NCBI RefSeq assembly: GCF_056712565.1 | Contig: NZ_CM160072.1 | Direction: 5' to 3' (one strand) | DNA: 64,000 nucleotides | Part shown: piece by piece, positions 49,483 through 57,768 of the stretch | How positions within the stretch are numbered: position 1 is the first letter of the stretch | Layout of the letters: each line of letters opens with the position of its first letter | Notes under the pieces: model-generated | The model's database searches: none | What the model saw: only the letters and a program-made list of their open reading frames with translations | What the model was told of the DNA's origin: nothing | Made by a program: the position numbers and the translations under genes

Positions 49483-51930
49483 TTAACCGTCATGCATCAT
49501 GCTGGCACGGGCGCGCGCACGTTTATCCCGCTCGTATTTTTCGAGCGCATCCTGTAACTGGCGGTCAAGCTGTGTCCCCGGCGCAGTACCACCCGTCAGG
49601 CTGATGTGATATTCGTTTTTACTCTGGTCCACATAAGAGCGGCCAGCCGGTGCCGTGACCGGCTGATAAGCCTGATAGCCTGCATAAGAGCTGGTCGCCG
49701 GAATATAACCACCGGTGCCATACGTGGCGGCATGAGTTCTGGCGGCGGTCTGGTCAAGTGTGTCTGACTCTTTGTTGATAACACCGAGTTTTTCCAGTAC
49801 CCAGTCAATACCGCTGCGCAGTTTGTTGAACGCATTAAGCGGCAGCATCAGCGCGTCAGCCAGTGCCTGCCCGAACATGACGCCCGTGTCACGGCAACGG
49901 TTCAGGGTGTCCCGGGTGGCTTTAACCGGAGCAATCAGGTTTGTAAACCACTGCCACGCGGCCTGTAACTTTTCGCCCAGCCAGTCAAACACCGGCTTAA
50001 GTGGCGTGAACAGCTCCCCCACCGGCGCAAATGCCGCTTTCAGCCCTTCAACCACACCGCCAAAGAATGCGCTGACAGGCTCCCAGTATTTACGGATAAG
50101 CAACGCCCCGGCGACAATGGCAGCCACCACGGCCACAACCGGCCAGCTAATCGCCCCGATGGCCGTCATAACAGCACTGCCAACCGTCGTGAAGATTGCC
50201 CCCATTGCGCCTGCTGCCGCGATAATAGCATTGATGCCGGTGATAACCGGCCAGGCTACGAGGCCAATGGCACCAATGATGCCAGTCAGCGCCAGTGCAC
50301 CACCGGCAATTAGGCCAATGGTTAACGCCAGTGATTTGTTTTTCTGGATCCAGCCGTCGAGTTTTAACACATACTTTGTGGCCGTCTGCGTGAGCTTACG
50401 CAGTGCGCCTTCCTGCTGGTCAAACAGGTCAGTCCCCACCGCCTCATAAGCGGACTGAAACTCCTTAAAGTCACCGCCGAGGTTGTCCTGCATGATATTT
50501 ACCAGTTCTGCGGTCTTTCCGTCTGAGGCTTTAAACGCAGCGGTCAGTTTGTCCAGCTTTCCGGTTGAGGCGGCAGTCATCAGCACGGCGGCGGCTGAAC
50601 TGGCCTCCTCCCCGAAAATGGTTTTCATGTATTCAGCCTGCTGGGCAGTACCGAGCCGGTTTTTCTCAAAACTGGCCTGCATTTCTTTCAGAATGGTAAA
50701 TACTGGTCGGGTGTTTCCCTTACTGTCTGAGGTTTTCACACCAAGCTCTTTGAGTGCATCCCATGCTTTTCCCGTCGGTGCCTGCAGGCGGCTTAACACG
50801 GCACGGCTTCCCGTTCCCGCCATTGAACCGGTAATTTTTGCATCATGCAGCGCCCCGACCATTGCGGCTGTTTCTTCAATGCTGACACCGGCATTTTTTG
50901 CCACAGGTGCGGCATAGGTCAGCGCATCGCTCATACCGTCAAAATCGGCGGCGGTTTTGTTCATCGTCATGGAGAGAACATCCCCGATATGAGCGACCTT
51001 ATCGTTTGAAAGCTGAAAGGCGGATTTCATCCCCATCAGCAGGGCGGCGTTTTCTTCCATCGTGCGGCGGTTCGCCAGCGCCATATTCAGCGTGACCGGC
51101 GTTGCCGCCTGAATGGCATCAACATCCCCACCGGCTTTCGCAATGATAATCTGCGCACCGGCAGCATCATCCGCCGAGGCGGCTGTGTTGTCGCCGAGCT
51201 GGCGCGCCTGTTTGCGTAGCGCGGCCATTTCGGCAGAATCTTTTGCCACACCGAGCACGGCCTGTAATTCTGAGTTTTTCTGCGCAAACTCATAACCGGG
51301 CATCAGCAGCTTAACACCGGCCATCGTTCCCGCCGCCGCAATCCCCACACCGGCAGCGCCCACTGAGGCCATATTTCCGGCCAGTTCCTTTCCGGCCTGA
51401 TAACGCTGTTTGACTGCGTTAAGTTTTGCCTGTTGCGCACTGACACGCGCCAGCGCGTCACGCTGCCGGTTAAGCTGGGCGGTGGTTTCACTGATACGGT
51501 TTTTCAGTCCCTGCTCATCATGTGCAAGATTGCGGGTATTAATTCCCACAGCGGCCAGTTCCCGCTGCTGGCGTTTAACGGAATCTGTCAGGCGGTTATA
51601 TTTCGCCTGTAAGTCCTCCGCCGCACGCTTTGCGGATTCCAGCACTTTCGCCTGAGCACGGGTCGGGCGTTCGGTGTTTTTAAACTGTGTGGCAAGGGCT
51701 TCGGCCTGCTGCCGTGCCTTTTCAAGTGCATGACCAGTCACGGCGAGCTGTGCACTGGTCTTGCGGAATCCCTCAATACGGGATGCGTGACCGTTCAGCT
51801 CGCGCAGTGATTTTTGTGTTTCCCGGATATCCCCCGACAGCAACTTACTCGCTGTGCGGATGGATTTAAACGGGCGGGACGCCTGGTCAACAGCCCTGAG
51901 CAATACCTGTAATTTTACATTGTTACTCAT
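49483..51930 (-). CDS. T: P2 gpT-like tail tape measure protein
   Basis: 815-aa ORF, coiled-coil N-terminal half, Gly/Ala-rich hydrophobic segment. Confidence 0.9.
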   Translation of the reverse strand: MSNNVKLQVLLRAVDQASRPFKSIRTASKLLSGDIRETQKSLRELNGHASRIEGFRKTSAQLAVTGHALEKARQQAEALATQFKNTERPTRAQAKVLESAKRAAEDLQAKYNRLTDSVKRQQRELAAVGINTRNLAHDEQGLKNRISETTAQLNRQRDALARVSAQQAKLNAVKQRYQAGKELAGNMASVGAAGVGIAAAGTMAGVKLLMPGYEFAQKNSELQAVLGVAKDSAEMAALRKQARQLGDNTAASADDAAGAQIIIAKAGGDVDAIQAATPVTLNMALANRRTMEENAALLMGMKSAFQLSNDKVAHIGDVLSMTMNKTAADFDGMSDALTYAAPVAKNAGVSIEETAAMVGALHDAKITGSMAGTGSRAVLSRLQAPTGKAWDALKELGVKTSDSKGNTRPVFTILKEMQASFEKNRLGTAQQAEYMKTIFGEEASSAAAVLMTAASTGKLDKLTAAFKASDGKTAELVNIMQDNLGGDFKEFQSAYEAVGTDLFDQQEGALRKLTQTATKYVLKLDGWIQKNKSLALTIGLIAGGALALTGIIGAIGLVAWPVITGINAIIAAAGAMGAIFTTVGSAVMTAIGAISWPVVAVVAAIVAGALLIRKYWEPVSAFFGGVVEGLKAAFAPVGELFTPLKPVFDWLGEKLQAAWQWFTNLIAPVKATRDTLNRCRDTGVMFGQALADALMLPLNAFNKLRSGIDWVLEKLGVINKESDTLDQTAARTHAATYGTGGYIPATSSYAGYQAYQPVTAPAGRSYVDQSKNEYHISLTGGTAPGTQLDRQLQDALEKYERDKRARARASMMHDG

Positions 51931-52350
51931 TCGTGTTTCCGCTTCGCCTGAGCGCCTTTTCGCGCCATGTGATGAGTTCGGTCAGGCTCATGGGATACAG
52001 TTCTGATGGCGGCCAGTGAAATATCACTGCCACATCCGCCATCAGGTCATCGACCGACAGATTTTTCGGAAGCGTCACTGCACCGAGTTCGGCGACAAAA
52101 AACCGACCACCTTACCGGCCAGCGCCACAAGGTCAGGCAGTTCCAGCGCGGCGACTTCCTGCTCGGTCAGCATCGGTGCCGTCATGCGCGGCAGCACCTT
52201 AATCAGTGCATCGACTTCGGAGTTCGCGACCGCAGCCAGACTGACACCGCGCAGCGTCCCGGCATTAGGTTTCATCAGCGTGACCTGTTCGATAACCTGC
52301 TCACCACGCTTGACCGGATTGTCCAGGGTAATCACATTTTCTTTGTTCAT
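51923..52350 (-). CDS. E': P2 gpE+E' fusion made by programmed -1 frameshift at TTTTTTG (52102..52096)
   Basis: The -1 frame stays open for 58 codons past the slippery site (VAELGAVTLPKNL...SGNTNE) and stops at a TAA overlapping the T start (ATGAGTAA). Confidence 0.6.
52075..52350 (-). CDS. E: P2 gpE-like tail assembly chaperone
   Basis: 91-aa ORF MNKENVITLDNPVKRGEQVIEQV; ends just after a TTTTTTG slippery run. Confidence 0.85.
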   Translation of the reverse strand: MNKENVITLDNPVKRGEQVIEQVTLMKPNAGTLRGVSLAAVANSEVDALIKVLPRMTAPMLTEQEVAALELPDLVALAGKVVGFLSPNSVQ

Positions 52351-52406: not shown

Positions 52407-52925
52407 TCACAGGCCGATATTGCGGCGGTGTTGCTCCAGCCGGTCGACGCCGTTCACCTTCTCAATCATGTTGATGGTGTCGATTTCGACCAGCTCCTTA
52501 CCGTCCATCGTCAGCCGGAAATAGGTGCAGACCACGGAGATTTTCGACTCGGTGTCTTCTCCCTGTTTGCCCTCGCCGGTGTCGATTTCTTTCTGACGTC
52601 CACGCATGACCACCTCGACGGCCACCGTTTCGCCGGTATCGTCGCGCTGGTAAGAGCCTGCAAAACGAATCGGTACGGAATCCACACCGGTTGCGGCGTA
52701 AAGCTCCCAGATAACCGAATCCGGGAAGCCACCGAGCGACCACTCCATTGACAGCGCATCGTCATCAAGGCCGAGGTCTACCGGTGCGCTGCCGTTCATC
52801 CCCGCACCGCGATAGTTTTCGAGCTTACGGGTCAGTTTTGGTAGCGTGACGGACTTCGCGACGCCCTGATAGCTGTAGCCGTTCAGAAAGACGTTCATTA
52901 ACTTGAGTTTGCGCGGCATTGCCAT
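52407..52925 (-). CDS. FII: P2 gpFII-like tail tube protein
   Basis: 172-aa ORF MAMPRKLKLMNVFLNGYSYQGVAKSV. Confidence 0.9.
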   Translation of the reverse strand: MAMPRKLKLMNVFLNGYSYQGVAKSVTLPKLTRKLENYRGAGMNGSAPVDLGLDDDALSMEWSLGGFPDSVIWELYAATGVDSVPIRFAGSYQRDDTGETVAVEVVMRGRQKEIDTGEGKQGEDTESKISVVCTYFRLTMDGKELVEIDTINMIEKVNGVDRLEQHRRNIGL

Positions 52926-54130
52926 CGGTCAGGCTCCTTATAATTGCTGTTAACCGAGGTGACCAGATTTGCCAGGTATTTATCGGTAATACGCTGGCGC
53001 AGGGTCAGGTTTTCAAGAGGAGGCACCGGTGTATAGTCGTAGTCGATATACAGTTTTCCGGCCTTGAGGGTTTCCGCATCGTTGGATTCTTCGCTGAACC
53101 AGCAGGTCGCATCCACGATATAGCCGTTTGTTTTCAGCTCACGGAATTTGGCATTGATGCCGTCAACGATGTCGCGAATCAGCGTTGCGGTGATGGGCTT
53201 GTCCACCGCCCACATGTGCGCCTCAGCCATCGTGTCAGCCAGTACCTGCGCGGTGCGGGTGTAGTTTTCAAAGAGGAACAGCGGGTCATCAGAGCAGGTA
53301 CGGTTACCCCAGAATCGGAAACCGTCGCGGCGAATCAGCGTAGTGACGCCTGACTCGTTAAGCAGGTCAGCATCGGTGCCGGACTCCTGCAAATCCCAGA
53401 ATACAGATGCGCTGATGCCGGTAACACCGTTTACCCCGACGTTGGACAGCGTTTTATGCCAGCCCTGCTCCTGGTCGATTTTAGCGCGCAGACCCAGCGC
53501 ACGGGCGGTGGCATACGCGGTAGCGGTGGTACTGGTGACCGTATCCCATGCGAGGAAATCCGGCCAGATGACCATCAGCTCACGCTGGCTGAAATTCTGG
53601 CGGTAGGCTTTCACCTCGGAAATGGTCTTACAGCCCCATGCGCTGATATATCCGAAAGCGCGCAGCTTCTGACAGACGGATGCCAGTGCAACAGCCACCT
53701 CTTTGGTATCCAGTCCCGGCACACCGAGAATACGCGGTTTAACACCGGTTACCGACTCCGCCGCCAGCAGGGCTTTTAGTCCGGTGTACTGACCGTTTTC
53801 GTCGGTGGTGCCGATGATATTGGAAACGGTCTGCGCGAGTTTCGTTTCCTCGTCATCACCGGTGCAGTCTTCCACGCGCACGACAACGGTGACCGGTTTT
53901 GACTGGTCAGCGATGGCCTGCAACGATGCCGCCAGCGTGCCTTTTTTACCGGCCTTTGCAATTGCGCTTTGCACATTGGTAATCAGCACCGGTTTATTGA
54001 GGGGGAAGGTTTCCGCATCCGCATCGCTGGCCGTGCAGACCATGCCGACAATGGCAGTGGATACGGTGGAAATGACGCGGGTGCCGTCGTTAATCTCCAG
54101 CACCTGCACGCCATGATGATAGTCACTCAT
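52898..54130 (-). CDS. FI: P2 gpFI-like tail sheath protein
   Basis: 410-aa ORF MSDYHHGVQVLEINDGTRVISTVSTAIVGMV. Confidence 0.9.
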   Translation of the reverse strand: MSDYHHGVQVLEINDGTRVISTVSTAIVGMVCTASDADAETFPLNKPVLITNVQSAIAKAGKKGTLAASLQAIADQSKPVTVVVRVEDCTGDDEETKLAQTVSNIIGTTDENGQYTGLKALLAAESVTGVKPRILGVPGLDTKEVAVALASVCQKLRAFGYISAWGCKTISEVKAYRQNFSQRELMVIWPDFLAWDTVTSTTATAYATARALGLRAKIDQEQGWHKTLSNVGVNGVTGISASVFWDLQESGTDADLLNESGVTTLIRRDGFRFWGNRTCSDDPLFLFENYTRTAQVLADTMAEAHMWAVDKPITATLIRDIVDGINAKFRELKTNGYIVDATCWFSEESNDAETLKAGKLYIDYDYTPVPPLENLTLRQRITDKYLANLVTSVNSNYKEPDRWQCRANSS

Positions 54131-54220
54131 CCGTTTAACTCCGTGGTTAATGGGTACAACTATTTTCTGTTGTGCAGAGCATAAGACGCTATTTGACCTG
54201 GCTGGTCAGTGGATGAAACA

Positions 54221-54253
54221 ACAGATAAAGAAAAGGCGGGCAATTCGCCCGCC
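54221..54253 (-). terminator. Intrinsic terminator on the minus strand, upstream of the FI promoter region
   Basis: Hairpin ggcgggc-aatt-cgcccgcc with a T-rich tract on the minus strand (ttttctttatctg). Confidence 0.55.
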
Positions 54254-54316
54254 TGTCCTGATTTGTACTCACTCATTTTCCGCCTGACAATTTACATAGC
54301 CCAAATGCTATCAAAC

Positions 54317-54334
54317 CTGACAGTCTGCTTTGAG
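54317..54334 (+). repeat. Copy 1 of ~16-bp motif CTGACAGTCTGSTYTG (ctgacagtctgctttgag)
   Basis: Shares a 13-mer with copy 3 and an 11-mer with copy 2. Confidence 0.7.
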
Positions 54335-54460
54335 CGAAAAGTGGACATTAGAGTTACAAAAGCAAGTTTAAATCATCCAAAATATTACAATGTCCTTATC
54401 TATCTGATATCGTTATGATAAAAAGCTCCTGAATATAATCGATAGTAGGTGGTTATTTCC

Positions 54461-54838
54461 ATGAAATCAATTTTAGAGGTCTTTACTCAAGGAAATACTA
54501 AAGAAAAACTGGCTGTTATCGCCGATCTCACAACCATTGCGGGAATATCGATTGCAACTATTATTGCTGGTTTGTTAACCCTAGTTGCAAAAACAGATAA
54601 ACTAGATGTTGGAAATCTGTTTGGAGTTGTCATAATATCTCTGCTCGGATTGGCTGGTGTTTGCTGTTTTGTGGCCTTATTTATTTGGGTTATAACCCAA
54701 ATGTCTAAACCATGGGGAACACCTCGGGGGGTTCAGCCCTTAGTTAAGTGTGCTATTTCCCTTATCTTTATCTGTATGTTTTTGCTGGCTGTCTTTACAT
54801 TTTATGAGTTTATTTCTTCGATGAGCATACGCTATTGA
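54461..54838 (+). CDS. Small three-TM-helix membrane protein of unknown function (prophage cargo)
   Basis: ORF 54449..54838; ATG at 54461 (MKSILEVFTQGN); three hydrophobic helices; AT-rich; convergent with the recombinase gene. Confidence 0.5.
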   Translation: MKSILEVFTQGNTKEKLAVIADLTTIAGISIATIIAGLLTLVAKTDKLDVGNLFGVVIISLLGLAGVCCFVALFIWVITQMSKPWGTPRGVQPLVKCAISLIFICMFLLAVFTFYEFISSMSIRY

Positions 54839-54860
54839 ATATAAAATCAGCCCCCATAAC

Positions 54861-55547
54861 TTAAAAGAGACCTTCTATATCGACTTCAATGCCCAAATAA
54901 CGGACTGTGCTTTCCAGTTTCTTATGGCCCAACAGAAGTTGGATCACCCGGAGACTCTTGGTTTTCTTGTAGATTAAGTAAGGTTTTGTTCTTCTCATGG
55001 AATGTGTGCTGTACAGCGAATCTTCGAGACCAAGCTTTTCTACCCACCCATGAAAAATTCGGTTGTATTGCCGGGTTGATATATGGTGGTTAGTTCCGAC
55101 CCGAGAGCGGAACAGGAAGCCTTTACTATGCCAGTTGCCGAGCTTTATCAATGCAGTAACCGCTTCCCTTGTCCCTTTGGTTATCTCAAATTGGACAGGG
55201 CTGCCGGTTTTCTGTTGCAACACCGTTGCTCTGCTTGAGACAGAACTGCCATATGCAGCATCTGATACTTTGAGTTTGACCAAATCACAGCCCCGTAGCT
55301 TAGTGTCCAAAGCCATGTTGAACAGAGCTAGATCGCGTGTTTTACCTTCCAACTCAAGTCTAATCCGGATCCCCCAGATATGAAATATCTGAAGTGGCCT
55401 TTTTTGACCGATGGTACGGTCTTTATTCCACGGTGACGTTTTCATATTCAAATCTCCTGCAATGTGGGAGATTTGAGTATGGTTGTCTCTCAAGAGCGAA
55501 AATAAGTCAACTATCACTAGTTGTTGCGCATGTACGTATTCTGTCAA
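54861..55547 (-). CDS. Short tyrosine-type site-specific recombinase (catalytic domain with only ~50-aa N-terminal extension)
   Basis: 228-aa ORF with the tyrosine-recombinase motif series: R in DTKLRGCDL, HSMRRT (H-x-x-R), LLGH, Y in TVRYLG; starts 4 nt after the stop of the upstream 280-aa gene. Confidence 0.6.
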   Translation of the reverse strand: MTEYVHAQQLVIVDLFSLLRDNHTQISHIAGDLNMKTSPWNKDRTIGQKRPLQIFHIWGIRIRLELEGKTRDLALFNMALDTKLRGCDLVKLKVSDAAYGSSVSSRATVLQQKTGSPVQFEITKGTREAVTALIKLGNWHSKGFLFRSRVGTNHHISTRQYNRIFHGWVEKLGLEDSLYSTHSMRRTKPYLIYKKTKSLRVIQLLLGHKKLESTVRYLGIEVDIEGLF

Positions 55548-56291
55548 TTAATTATTGACAATCATCAATTCTGGAATGATCAAAATCATCATATCGAATT
55601 ATAGTCTGGTTGACTGTATCTATTGTTGGTGTCATTTCTGTTATAATATCCTGATAACCTAAAGAGTTAAATACATTTACTAAGGCCTCACACCGAAGGG
55701 CCGTAGCAATTACAAAATTATAAATTGCCAGCCGTTTATTTTCTTGTTTAACTGCAAGAATGAATTCGATAGCAGTATTTTCATCACTTTGGATTGCATT
55801 ATATAGAGATACTATATTTACCATATCATCAGAGAATGTATGTATTGAATCACAAAGGGGAACGTAATGGGCATGATAGTGTGTTTCCCAGCCAATTAAT
55901 TCAAAAAGTCTTCTGGTTCCTGGATATTCAGGTGTATTTGGCCACAATCTATTAAATAGATCAGTTAGTTCTTTTCCCATGCGAATCCTTTCATTTGCTG
56001 CTGGATTAGTCATTCCTTTGGATTTTAAACACTCCAGCCACCGTTTTCCATTACTATGAACTAATTTCTTACTAGCCTTGAGTAATGCTTGTGCATTTTC
56101 GCCATCATCTATTGCTATATAAAATTGATTGGCAGCCTGTTCTATTATAACCCTAGCTAATACTTCCGATGCTGAAAAGGCTCCTATATTCAAAGAAGAG
56201 ATAGCCTGATTACTAAGTTCATTCAGTACATTAAAGTACTGTAAGACCATCAATTTTTGTTCCACACCCTTTAGGTTGTCTGGATTTGCCC

Positions 56292-57197
56292 CTATATTTC
56301 CAGACACCTGTTATCACTTAACCCATTACTGGCTTGCTGCCGTAGATATTCCCGTGGCGAGCGATAACCCAGTGCACTATGCGGATGCCATTCGTTATAA
56401 TGCTCGAACGCCTCTGCAAGGTTCTTTGCTGCCGTTAACCCGTCTGGTTTGGGCATGACACTGATGTAGTCACGCTTTATCGTTTTCACGAAGCTCTCTG
56501 CTATGCCGTTACTCTCCGGACTCCGCACCGCCGTGCTCTTCGGTTCAAGCCCCAACATCCGGGCAAACTGCCGTGTTTCATTAGCCCGGTAGCATGAACC
56601 ATTATCCGTCAGCCACTCTACTGGAGACGCCGGAAGCTCGTTGCCGAAGCGGCGTTCCACCGCTCCCAGCATGACGTCCTGTACTGTTTCACTGTTGAAG
56701 CCGCCCGTAGTGACCGCCCAGTGCAGTGCCTCACGGTCACAGCAGTCCAGCGCGAACGTGACTCGCAGTTTTTCTCCGTTATCACAGCGGAACTCGAACC
56801 CGTCAGAGCACCATCGCTGATTACTTTCTTTCACAGCCACTCTGCCTGTATGTGCCCGTTTCGATGGCGGTACAGCAGGTTTTCGCTCAAGCAACAGCGC
56901 ATTCTGGCGCATGATCCGGTAAACACGTTTGGCATTGATCGCAGGCATACCATCAAGTTCTGCCTGTCTGCGAAGCAGCGCCCATACCCGACGATAACCA
57001 TACGTGGGCAGCTCTCCGATAACATGGTGTATACGGAGAAGCACATCCGTATCATCAGTGTGACGACTGCGGCGGCCATCCATCCAGTCATCGGTTCGTC
57101 TGAGAATGACGTGCAACTGCGCACGCGACACCCGGAGACAACGGCTGACTAAGCTTACTCCCCATCCCCGGGCAATAAGGGCGCGTGCGCTATCCAC
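56292..57197 (-). CDS. insD: IS2 transposase OrfB (InsD, DDE catalytic domain)
   Basis: 301-aa [41 protein letters not shown]. Confidence 0.9.
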
Positions 57198-57520
57198 TTT
57201 TTTGCCCGTCCATATTCAACGGCTTCTTTGAGGAGTTCATTTTCCATCGTTTTCTTGCCGAGCAGGCGCTGGAGTTCTTTAATCTGCTTCATGGCGGCAG
57301 CAAGTTCAGAGGCAGGAACAACCTGTTCTCCGGCGGCGACAGCAGTAAGACTTCCTTCCTGGTATTGCTTACGCCAGAGAAATAACTGGCTGGCTGCTAC
57401 ACCATGTTGCCGGGCAACGAGGGAGACCGTCATCCCTGGTTCAAAGCTCTGCTGAACAATTGCGATCTTTTCCTGTGTGGTACGCCGTCTGCGTTTCTCC
57501 GGTCCTAAGACATCAATCAT
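57155..57520 (-). CDS. insC: IS2 OrfA (InsC, HTH); fused to OrfB by -1 frameshift in the 57155..57197 overlap
   Basis: ORF 57155..57565; start set at [26 protein letters not shown]. Confidence 0.85.
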
Positions 57521-57768
57521 CTGCTCTCCAATGACTAGTCTAAAAACTAGTATTAAGACTATCACTTAAATAAGTGATATTGGTTGTCTGGAGATTCAGG
57601 GGGCCAGTCTATTGTCTATTTTATTTTTATGCTCCTCAAATTTTGCATGGATATATTTATTTATCGCGGCTATTTTTTTTACATCTTCGTCAAGATCAAA
57701 CGGGCAACGTCCAAACAATTCTTTTTTCATATATTTCTCCTGTTGTACAAGCTTCCATAAGTTGGCAG

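What the first reader, a model, noticed from the sequence alone, without database searches (positions are those of the whole stretch)
51923..52350. Conserved E/E' programmed -1 frameshift with E' stop overlapping the tape-measure start
A TTTTTTG heptamer sits 7 codons before the E stop. The -1 frame then runs 58 further codons and terminates at a TAA embedded in ATGAGTAA, the start of T. This reproduces the P2 chaperone frameshift arrangement and argues that the tail module is evolutionarily maintained rather than decaying.
Basis: partly seen in the sequence, partly recalled or inferred. Interest (0 to 1): 0.3.

Follow-up and report, generated by a model that had tools for sequence, protein, structure and literature searches.

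The report
Phage P2 tail-chaperone E/E' frameshift site
This is the well-known programmed -1 ribosomal frameshift that makes the two tail-assembly chaperones (E and E+E') of phage P2, sitting in an almost P2-identical prophage in an E. coli chromosome, so it is real but ordinary.

Summary
Gene E (52350..52075, 91 aa) contains T_TTT_TTG (52102..52096) in the slippery register, six sense codons before its TGA. The -1 frame then runs 57 sense codons to a TAA (51925..51923) inside ATGAGTAA, whose ATG (51930) starts the 815-aa tape measure T.

The 142-aa fusion is 140/142 identical to P2 gpE+E'. The P2 reference record annotates the same 428-nt span as a -1 frameshift product.

In 70 close relatives (63 alleles), the heptamer, the open E' frame and ATGAGTAA never vary, and silent-site variation changes phase at the heptamer. 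All 19 divergent phages, chosen only by tail-tube homology, have an in-register slippery heptamer followed by a 46-71 codon extension. In many of these the conserved E' domain has no start codon of its own.

I found no conserved downstream RNA structure. An upstream Shine-Dalgarno-like motif is explained by amino-acid conservation.

The "maintained, not decaying" inference is only partly supported. pN/pS of about 0.06 reflects selection in the phage lineage. This prophage also carries a rare 2-nt insertion that removes the sheath (FI) stop codon, and an IS element in a nearby accessory (moron) region.

Already known; low interest.

The parts
52075..52350 (-). Gene E: tail assembly chaperone, 91 aa, the zero-frame product
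   Evidence: ORF. Pfam PF10109 Phage_TAC_7 E = 2.6e-12. PHROG 103 'tail protein' E = 5e-43. One residue differs from P2 gpE (N29 here, S29 in P2).
52096..52102 (-). Slippery heptamer T_TTT_TTG, the site of the -1 shift
   Evidence: In register with the E frame. Invariant in 70/70 close relatives. TTTTTTG in 15 of 19 divergent phages, with other X_XXY_YYZ heptamers in the remaining 4. The P2 record places its 'site of -1 translational frameshift' at the base immediately 3' of the homologous heptamer.
51923..52096 (-). E' extension in the -1 frame: 57 codons plus TAA. It is translated only as the C-terminal part of the 142-aa E+E' fusion.
   Evidence: Pfam PF06528 Phage_P2_GpE on fusion residues 104-139, E = 1.2e-21. 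Variation among 63 alleles falls on third positions of this frame, 20 synonymous versus 8 non-synonymous changes from the E stop codon onwards. One residue differs from P2 (L94 here, F94 in P2).
51923..51930 (-). ATGAGTAA: the E' stop (TAA 51925..51923) overlaps the T start (ATG 51930..51928)
   Evidence: Invariant in 70/70 relatives. The E' stop overlaps or abuts the T start in 14 of the 17 reference phages with a T start, including P2. Lambda T/H has the same 8-nt geometry, ATGGCTGA.
49483..51930 (-). Gene T: tail tape measure protein, 815 aa
   Evidence: Pfam PF10145 E = 1.8e-45. Same length as P2 T with 803/815 identical residues. Weakest Shine-Dalgarno of the operon, -3.5 kcal/mol.
52407..52925 (-). 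Gene FII: tail tube protein, immediately upstream of E
   Evidence: Pfam PF04985 E = 4e-60. Used as the frameshift-blind query for choosing relatives.

Best explanation
This is the programmed -1 ribosomal frameshift of the FETUD tail operon of a P2-type (Peduovirus) prophage. The prophage is inserted between yegR and yegQ in an E. coli chromosome.

Most ribosomes translating E stop at TGA and make the 91-aa chaperone gpE. A minority behave differently, reported as about 10% for P2 (2-3 times the lambda G-T rate). With tRNA-Phe on UUU in the P site and tRNA-Leu on UUG in the A site, they slip back one base on U_UUU_UUG. They then read 57 more codons and make the 142-aa gpE+E'.

By analogy with lambda gpG/gpGT, the shared E part binds the tape measure T. 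The E' part recruits the tail tube protein, which fixes a set ratio of the two chaperones for tail assembly.

Frameshifted ribosomes terminate at a TAA that overlaps the T start codon (ATGAGTAA). This probably couples some T initiation to the frameshift.

What is shown here: sequence identity to P2, conservation of the site, its register and the open frame, and coding selection in the -1 frame. What is taken from the literature: the actual frameshifting and its efficiency in P2. What is inferred: the tRNA details, the chaperone roles and the coupling to T.
For: - Anatomy.
- Homology: the DNA is 97-99% identical to P2 and its close relatives. The fusion is 140/142 identical to P2 gpE+E'. PF10109 and PF06528 both match.
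- Annotated frameshift: the same 428-nt span is annotated as a -1 frameshift CDS in P2, L-413C, PsP3 and KS5.
- Literature: PMC3091744 states that the P2 -1 shift at TTTTTTG gives the 91-aa E and the 142-aa E+E' from one start site, with no downstream hairpin. PMC5009743 gives the P2-type efficiency as 2-3 times that of lambda.
- Close relatives: across 70 loci with 63 alleles, the heptamer, the intact E' frame and ATGAGTAA are each present in 70/70. Variable sites move from third positions of the E frame to third positions of the -1 frame at the heptamer.
- Divergent relatives: all 19 phages picked by FII homology alone (31-74% aa identity) have an in-register X_XXY_YYZ near the 3' end of E, with a 46-71 codon -1 extension.
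- No independent start: the -1 frame is closed 5 codons upstream of the heptamer in the window. In most relatives it has no start codon until 14-45 codons after the shift, at the edge of the conserved E' domain (which begins about 11-27 codons after the shift) and in four relatives well inside it.
- Selection: pN/pS against P2 is 0.06-0.16 for E, E', T, U and D.
Against: - Nothing here measures frameshifting in this strain, and the primary paper (Christie et al. 2002, PMC135442) could not be read.
- No stimulatory element was found. The downstream fold z-score is only -1.59, and RNAalifold predicts 0 conserved pairs.
- In this particular sequence a GTG overlaps the E stop as GTGA. NCBI's PGAP pipeline annotates a separate 51-aa 'GpE family' ORF from it, so independent initiation is not excluded for this prophage by sequence alone.
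- The residue at the junction (L-V here) depends on the slippage model.
Confidence: 0.95

Rival explanations
1. E' is a separate 51-aa protein. It would be initiated at the GTG (52078) that overlaps the E stop as GTGA, by termination-reinitiation, rather than made as a frameshift fusion.
For: PGAP annotates exactly this ORF as a 'GpE family phage tail protein' in the identical SF-468 prophage. Several phage records do the same. The GTGA overlap is a classic coupling motif. A modest SD-like match lies upstream, at -5.3 kcal/mol.
Against: - The start is not conserved. In the divergent relatives the first -1-frame start after the shift lies 14-45 codons downstream, and in RsoM1USA, phiT5282H, VP58.5 and Aeromonas 59.1 it falls well inside the conserved domain.
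- Residues directly after the heptamer and before any start codon are conserved in the -1 frame (x-A-E-x-G).
- The heptamer and its register are conserved in all 19 divergent phages.
- The literature reports a fusion made from the E start (PMC3091744).
Confidence: 0.03
2. The fusion arises from transcriptional slippage. RNA polymerase would add one extra U in the T6 run, rather than the ribosome slipping.
For: The site is a run of six T, and one inserted U would give the same E+E' reading frame. This follows from the sequence itself.
Against: - Six bases is short for efficient polymerase slippage (established knowledge).
- Relatives with GGGAAAG (Mannheimia) and GGGTTTC (PPpW-3) keep the arrangement without a homopolymer run. 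Lambda uses G_GGA_AAG.
- The X_XXY_YYZ codon register is kept in all 19 divergent phages. Register matters to ribosomes, not to the polymerase, although the conserved G-F-L peptide could also fix it.
Confidence: 0.02
3. The site is merely inherited. The prophage is recent or already silent, so the intact frameshift says nothing about selection on this tail module in its present host.
For: - The prophage is 100% identical over 18.6 kb to the SF-468 prophage apart from an IS insertion, so there is no in-situ variation to test.
- FI has lost its stop codon through a 2-nt insertion. That allele is seen in only 15 of 5426 complete E. coli genomes, against at least 1462 genomes with the normal junction.
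- An IS3-family element has landed in the prophage.
Against: E, E', T, U and D have the same lengths as in P2, ogr is identical, and pN/pS is about 0.06. The related SF-468 prophage carries a full P2 gene set from int to ogr. The IS sits in a non-essential moron gene.
Confidence: 0.4

Closest known systems
Bacteriophage P2 gpE / gpE+E' programmed -1 frameshift (Christie et al. 2002, J Bacteriol 184:6522; annotated in NC_001895)
   Same: - Same gene order: FI-FII-E/E'-T-U-D-ogr.
- Same 428-nt span and same TTTTTTG at the same codon.
- Same 91-aa and 142-aa products (140/142 identical).
- Same ATGAGTAA overlap with T.
   Different: Only point differences. In 428 nt there are 10 substitutions, two of which change an amino acid: E residue 29 is N here and S in P2, and E' residue 94 is L here and F in P2. 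The L94 allele is the minority state, since 68 of 70 relatives have F. The element here is a chromosomal prophage, not the laboratory phage.
Phage lambda gpG / gpGT tail assembly chaperone frameshift (Levin et al. 1993; Xu, Hendrix & Duda 2004, 2013, 2014)
   Same: - Two overlapping ORFs between the tail tube gene and the tape measure gene.
- A -1 shift on an X_XXY_YYZ heptamer near the end of the first ORF.
- The stop of the extension overlaps the tape measure start by the same 8-nt geometry: ATGGCTGA in lambda, ATGAGTAA here.
- The chaperones are not part of the virion (PMC5009743).
   Different: - Pfam assigns the window's E and E' only to the P2-type families PF10109 and PF06528; lambda gpG and gpT were not compared directly here.
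- The heptamer is G_GGA_AAG in lambda and T_TTT_TTG here.
- The lambda extension is about 140 aa, against 57 aa here.
- The reported efficiency is about 3.5% for lambda against 2-3 times that for P2.
- Lambda has a non-contractile tail and P2 a contractile one.
E. coli dnaX and IS3-family orfA/orfB -1 frameshifts (A_AAA_AAG with stimulators)
   Same: Tandem -1 slippage on an X_XXY_YYG heptamer decoded by E. coli ribosomes. An IS3-family example with A_AAA_AAG sits about 5 kb away in the same window.
   Different: Those sites use an upstream Shine-Dalgarno-like element and/or a downstream hairpin or pseudoknot. No conserved downstream structure was found here. The upstream SD-like AAGGTGG/GAGGTG motif is not stronger than the conserved amino acids would give (synonymous shuffles, Fisher p = 0.15).

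Membership tests
P2-type (Peduoviridae) E/E+E' tail chaperone frameshift | An E homologue (Phage_TAC_7) lies directly between the tail tube gene FII and the tape measure gene T | tested here: met
   PF10109 matches E, PF04985 matches the upstream gene and PF10145 matches the downstream gene. The gene order equals that of P2.
P2-type (Peduoviridae) E/E+E' tail chaperone frameshift | An in-register slippery heptamer (T_TTT_TTG in P2) near the 3' end of E | tested here: met
   T_TTT_TTG at 52102..52096, six sense codons before the E stop. The position is identical to P2.
P2-type (Peduoviridae) E/E+E' tail chaperone frameshift | The -1 frame extension encodes the GpE (E') domain and lacks a conserved start of its own | tested here: met
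   PF06528 E = 1.2e-21 on fusion residues 104-139. Start codons are absent or misplaced in the relatives. The window itself does have a GTG six codons after the shift.
P2-type (Peduoviridae) E/E+E' tail chaperone frameshift | Coding selection acts on the -1 frame downstream of the heptamer | tested here: met
   Variable sites switch codon phase at the heptamer. From the E stop codon onwards there are 20 synonymous versus 8 non-synonymous changes across 63 alleles. pN/pS is 0.16 against P2.
P2-type (Peduoviridae) E/E+E' tail chaperone frameshift | A fusion protein is actually produced by ribosomal -1 frameshifting (about 10% in P2), and E' is essential for tail assembly | not testable with these tools
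   Known for P2 from the literature (cited in PMC3091744, and PMC5009743). The primary paper is not held. No expression data exist for this strain.
Lambda-type G/GT tail assembly chaperones (functional class) | Two overlapping ORFs between the major tail gene and the tape measure gene, joined by a programmed frameshift | tested here: met
   The lambda arrangement was checked.
Lambda-type G/GT tail assembly chaperones (functional class) | Sequence homology to lambda gpG/gpT | not tested
   Pfam assigns E and E' to PF10109 and PF06528 only, at E <= 0.01. No direct comparison with lambda gpG or gpT was run, so the likeness rests on function and organisation.

The most novel reading that the evidence does not exclude
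Tape-measure (T) synthesis may be largely slaved to the frameshift. T has the weakest ribosome-binding site of the operon, and its ATG sits 5 nt upstream of the E' stop (ATGAGTAA). Zero-frame ribosomes terminate 145 nt upstream of it. T could therefore be initiated mainly by the roughly 10% of ribosomes that frameshifted and then terminate and reinitiate there. That would lock T output to E+E' output. The same 8-nt geometry in lambda (ATGGCTGA) would make this a general rule for long-tailed phages.
Probability: 0.25. Interest if true: 0.35.

Novelty: already known. Interest (0 to 1): 0.05.

Why it matters
It matters little beyond correct annotation. The E/E+E' frameshift of P2 was demonstrated experimentally in 2002 and is a textbook example of the conserved tail-chaperone frameshift.

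The practical point is that automatic annotation (PGAP) still splits it into two genes, a 'phage tail assembly protein' and a 51-aa 'GpE family phage tail protein' with an artificial GTG start, instead of one slippage-joined CDS.

The comparative data collected here add a clean, frameshift-blind confirmation. The site, its register and the coding of the -1 frame are conserved across Peduoviridae and their more distant relatives.

Tried and rejected
1. Downstream stimulatory RNA structure. The 90 nt after the heptamer fold at -31.7 kcal/mol, z = -1.59, and 11 of 200 shuffles fold as well. RNAalifold on 15 TTTTTTG-bearing relatives gave 0 conserved pairs. Rejected, in agreement with PMC3091744.

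2. Upstream dnaX-like Shine-Dalgarno stimulator. An AAGGTGG/GAGGTG motif 5-8 nt upstream of the heptamer gives a clear peak of anti-SD affinity across the window plus 18 divergent phages. The five codons upstream of the heptamer also show no silent variation in 70 relatives. Synonymous-codon shuffles that keep the amino acids give Fisher p = 0.15, so it cannot be separated from conservation of the [E/K]-V peptide. Left as inconclusive.

3. Significance of the heptamer or the mechanical pattern alone. Not above chance.

4. Whether T's Shine-Dalgarno is weaker when E' overlaps T than when there is a gap. No difference was seen, but there were only 3 gapped cases.

5. Solved structures and NCBIfam. 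There is no PDB relative by sequence and no NCBIfam hit for the fusion.

6. Reading the primary paper PMC135442. It is not held.

7. A census of slippery-site disruption across the roughly 1,500 E. coli genomes that carry P2-like prophages. Not done, because the tools return counts rather than sequences at that scale.
Full report
**Observation**

The feature lies on the minus strand.

- Gene E runs from ATG 52350 to TGA 52077-52075 and encodes 91 aa.
- The only slippery heptamer in its 3' part is TTTTTTG at 52102..52096. It is phased T_TTT_TTG with the E frame (…GGT TTT TTG TCG…). TTG is the seventh codon before the stop.
- Re-reading the G in the -1 frame gives 57 sense codons (VAELGAVTLPKN…RRSGNTNE) and a TAA at 51925..51923.
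- That TAA lies inside ATGAGTAA. Its ATG (51930) opens the 815-aa gene T.

The heptamer alone is not unusual. It occurs 17 times in the window against 19 expected. The purely mechanical pattern (an in-register heptamer in the last 25 codons plus a -1 ORF of at least 40 codons) turns up in 7 of 158 ORFs of at least 80 aa, most of them ORFs that overlap a longer opposite-strand ORF. The case therefore rests on homology and conservation.

**What it is**

Pfam places E in PF10109 (tail assembly chaperones) and the -1 extension in PF06528 (Phage P2 GpE, E = 1e-21). The flanking genes are the tail sheath FI, the tail tube FII, the tape measure T, gpU and gpD.

The 521 nt around the site are 97-99% identical to P2 and its close relatives (Peduovirus and P2-like Yersinia and Escherichia phages). 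The P2 reference NC_001895 annotates a joined CDS "E+E'" of the same 428 nt, with a "site of -1 translational frameshift" immediately after the homologous heptamer. L-413C, PsP3 and KS5 are annotated the same way.

The modelled 142-aa fusion is 140/142 identical to the P2 fusion. T, U and D have the P2 lengths and 98-99% identity, and ogr is identical.

The window is E. coli chromosome. It is 100% identical to strain SF-468 apart from one IS insertion. In SF-468 the element is a complete P2-type prophage, int through ogr, between yegR and yegQ.

**Conservation tests**

I chose relatives by tail-tube (FII) homology, so the choice was blind to the frameshift site.

Close relatives: 80 IMG/VR loci with FII at least 99% identical gave 70 full-length E/E' regions in 63 distinct alleles.

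- The heptamer is present in 70/70, the intact E+E' frame in 70/70 and ATGAGTAA in 70/70.
- Upstream of the heptamer, variable sites fall on third positions of the E frame. Downstream, they fall on third positions of the -1 frame. From the E stop codon onwards there are 20 synonymous versus 8 non-synonymous changes.

Divergent relatives: 19 phages sharing 31-74% FII identity (Salmonella, Yersinia, Klebsiella, Pseudomonas, Shewanella, Burkholderia, Ralstonia, Acidovorax, Mannheimia, Acidithiobacillus, Vibrio and Aeromonas).

- All have an in-register X_XXY_YYZ near the 3' end of E, followed by a 46-71 codon -1 extension.
- TTTTTTG occurs in 15, TTTTTTC in 2, GGGAAAG in 1 and GGGTTTC in 1.
- The extension aligns as a conserved domain (…V[DE]D.MADIA.IFHW.P.E…EL..WR..A..RSG), and residues directly after the shift are also conserved.
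- In most of these phages the -1 frame has no start codon until 14-45 codons after the shift, at the edge of or inside the conserved domain. Only a fusion with E can express the domain in those phages.
- In the window the -1 frame is closed 5 codons upstream of the heptamer. Entry must therefore occur within about 12 codons, and the heptamer is the only slippery site there.

**Mechanism**

The best-supported mechanism is tandem -1 slippage of the P-site tRNA-Phe and the A-site tRNA-Leu on U_UUU_UUG. This gives a minority fusion product.

PMC3091744 states that in P2 this site yields the 91-aa E and the 142-aa E+E' from one start, with no downstream hairpin. PMC5009743 states that the efficiency in P2-type phages is 2-3 times that of lambda G-T. 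My recollection of the abstract of Christie et al. 2002 is about 10%, and that E' is essential, but that paper could not be read here.

I found no stimulator.

- The downstream fold has z = -1.59, and RNAalifold finds no conserved pair in 15 relatives.
- An SD-like AAGGTGG/GAGGTG motif 5-8 nt upstream is visibly conserved. It is not stronger than expected once the amino acids are held fixed (Fisher p = 0.15).

The roles of the two proteins are inferred from the lambda gpG/gpGT work summarised in PMC5009743: E binds the tape measure, and E' recruits the tube protein.

**The stop/start overlap**

ATGAGTAA is invariant in close relatives. The E' stop overlaps or abuts the T start in 14 of the 17 reference phages with a T start, P2 included. 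Lambda has the same 8-nt geometry between T and H, ATGGCTGA. T has the weakest Shine-Dalgarno of the operon, at -3.5 kcal/mol against -8.5 for FII and -14.5 for U.

It is plausible that frameshifted ribosomes reinitiate on T and so tie T output to E+E' output. This has not been tested.

**Rivals**

- Independent initiation of E' at the GTG that overlaps the E stop (GTGA). PGAP annotates it this way. The lack of a conserved start in relatives argues against it.
- Transcriptional slippage on the T6 run. The conserved codon register, and the relatives that use non-homopolymeric heptamers, argue against it.

pN/pS against P2 is 0.06 for E, T and D, 0.07 for U and 0.16 for E'. This shows strong purifying selection, but along the phage lineage, not in this chromosome.

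This prophage also carries lesions.

- A 2-nt TA insertion removes the FI stop codon. It adds 14 residues to the sheath protein and makes FI overlap FII by 28 nt. The allele is found in 15 of 5426 complete E. coli genomes, against at least 1462 genomes with the normal junction.
- An IS3-family (IS2-like) element is inserted in a moron gene between G and FI.

The inference is therefore only partly supported.

**Verdict**

The feature is the already-known P2 E/E+E' programmed frameshift in a near-P2 prophage. Interest is low.

Noticed in passing
window 52898-52945 (minus strand; FI 3' end / FII start): The tail sheath gene FI has lost its stop codon through a 2-nt TA insertion (AATTA[TA]AGGAG). 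None of the 80 IMG/VR relatives, nor L-413C, has it. FI becomes 410 aa instead of 396 and overlaps FII by 28 nt. The allele occurs in 15 of 5426 complete E. coli genomes, against at least 1462 with the normal junction. It could be a first sign of decay, or a tolerated extension.
   Followed up: partly
window ~56282-57611: An insertion of about 1331 bp of an IS3-family (IS2-like) element, with a 5-6 bp target duplication. It is absent from the otherwise 100% identical SF-468 prophage and interrupts a DUF5677 gene in the G/FI moron region. It carries its own in-register A_AAA_AAG (about 57198-57204, minus strand) with a 301-codon -1 extension. This is the orfA/orfB transposase frameshift, a second programmed -1 frameshift in the window.
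   Followed up: partly
window 54150-56310: The slot between tail fibre assembly gene G and FI holds cargo that is not P2 core: a small membrane-like ORF (54449-54838), a truncated tyrosine recombinase (54861-55547) and a DUF5677 protein. In L-413C the sequence just upstream of FI holds an unrelated hypothetical gene, so the cargo here differs between relatives.
   Followed up: no
window 52075-52078 (minus strand): The E stop TGA overlaps a GTG in the -1 frame as GTGA. PGAP uses that GTG to call a separate 51-aa 'GpE family phage tail protein' instead of a slippage-joined E+E' CDS. The same split annotation appears in many phage records.
   Followed up: yes
window 52103-52117 (minus strand), and the equivalent position in L084-L101: An SD-like AAGGTGG/GAGGTG motif 5-8 nt upstream of the slippery heptamer is conserved across divergent phages. 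The AAG codon here never varies in 70 relatives, although two other Lys codons in E flip freely between AAG and AAA. It is not significant after controlling for amino acids (p = 0.15).
   Followed up: yes
L103 (phage lambda) 1543-1550: The lambda T stop and H start overlap as ATGGCTGA. This is the same 8-nt geometry as the P2 E' stop and T start, ATGAGTAA, despite the different heptamer and extension length.
   Followed up: partly
L096 (Mannheimia phage vB_MhM_535AP1) 2086-3400: This record has E with a GGGAAAG slippery site and a 52-codon extension, but no tape measure gene is annotated between E and U. Only a 115-aa hypothetical gene lies there. This may be a deletion or an assembly problem in that record.
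   Followed up: no
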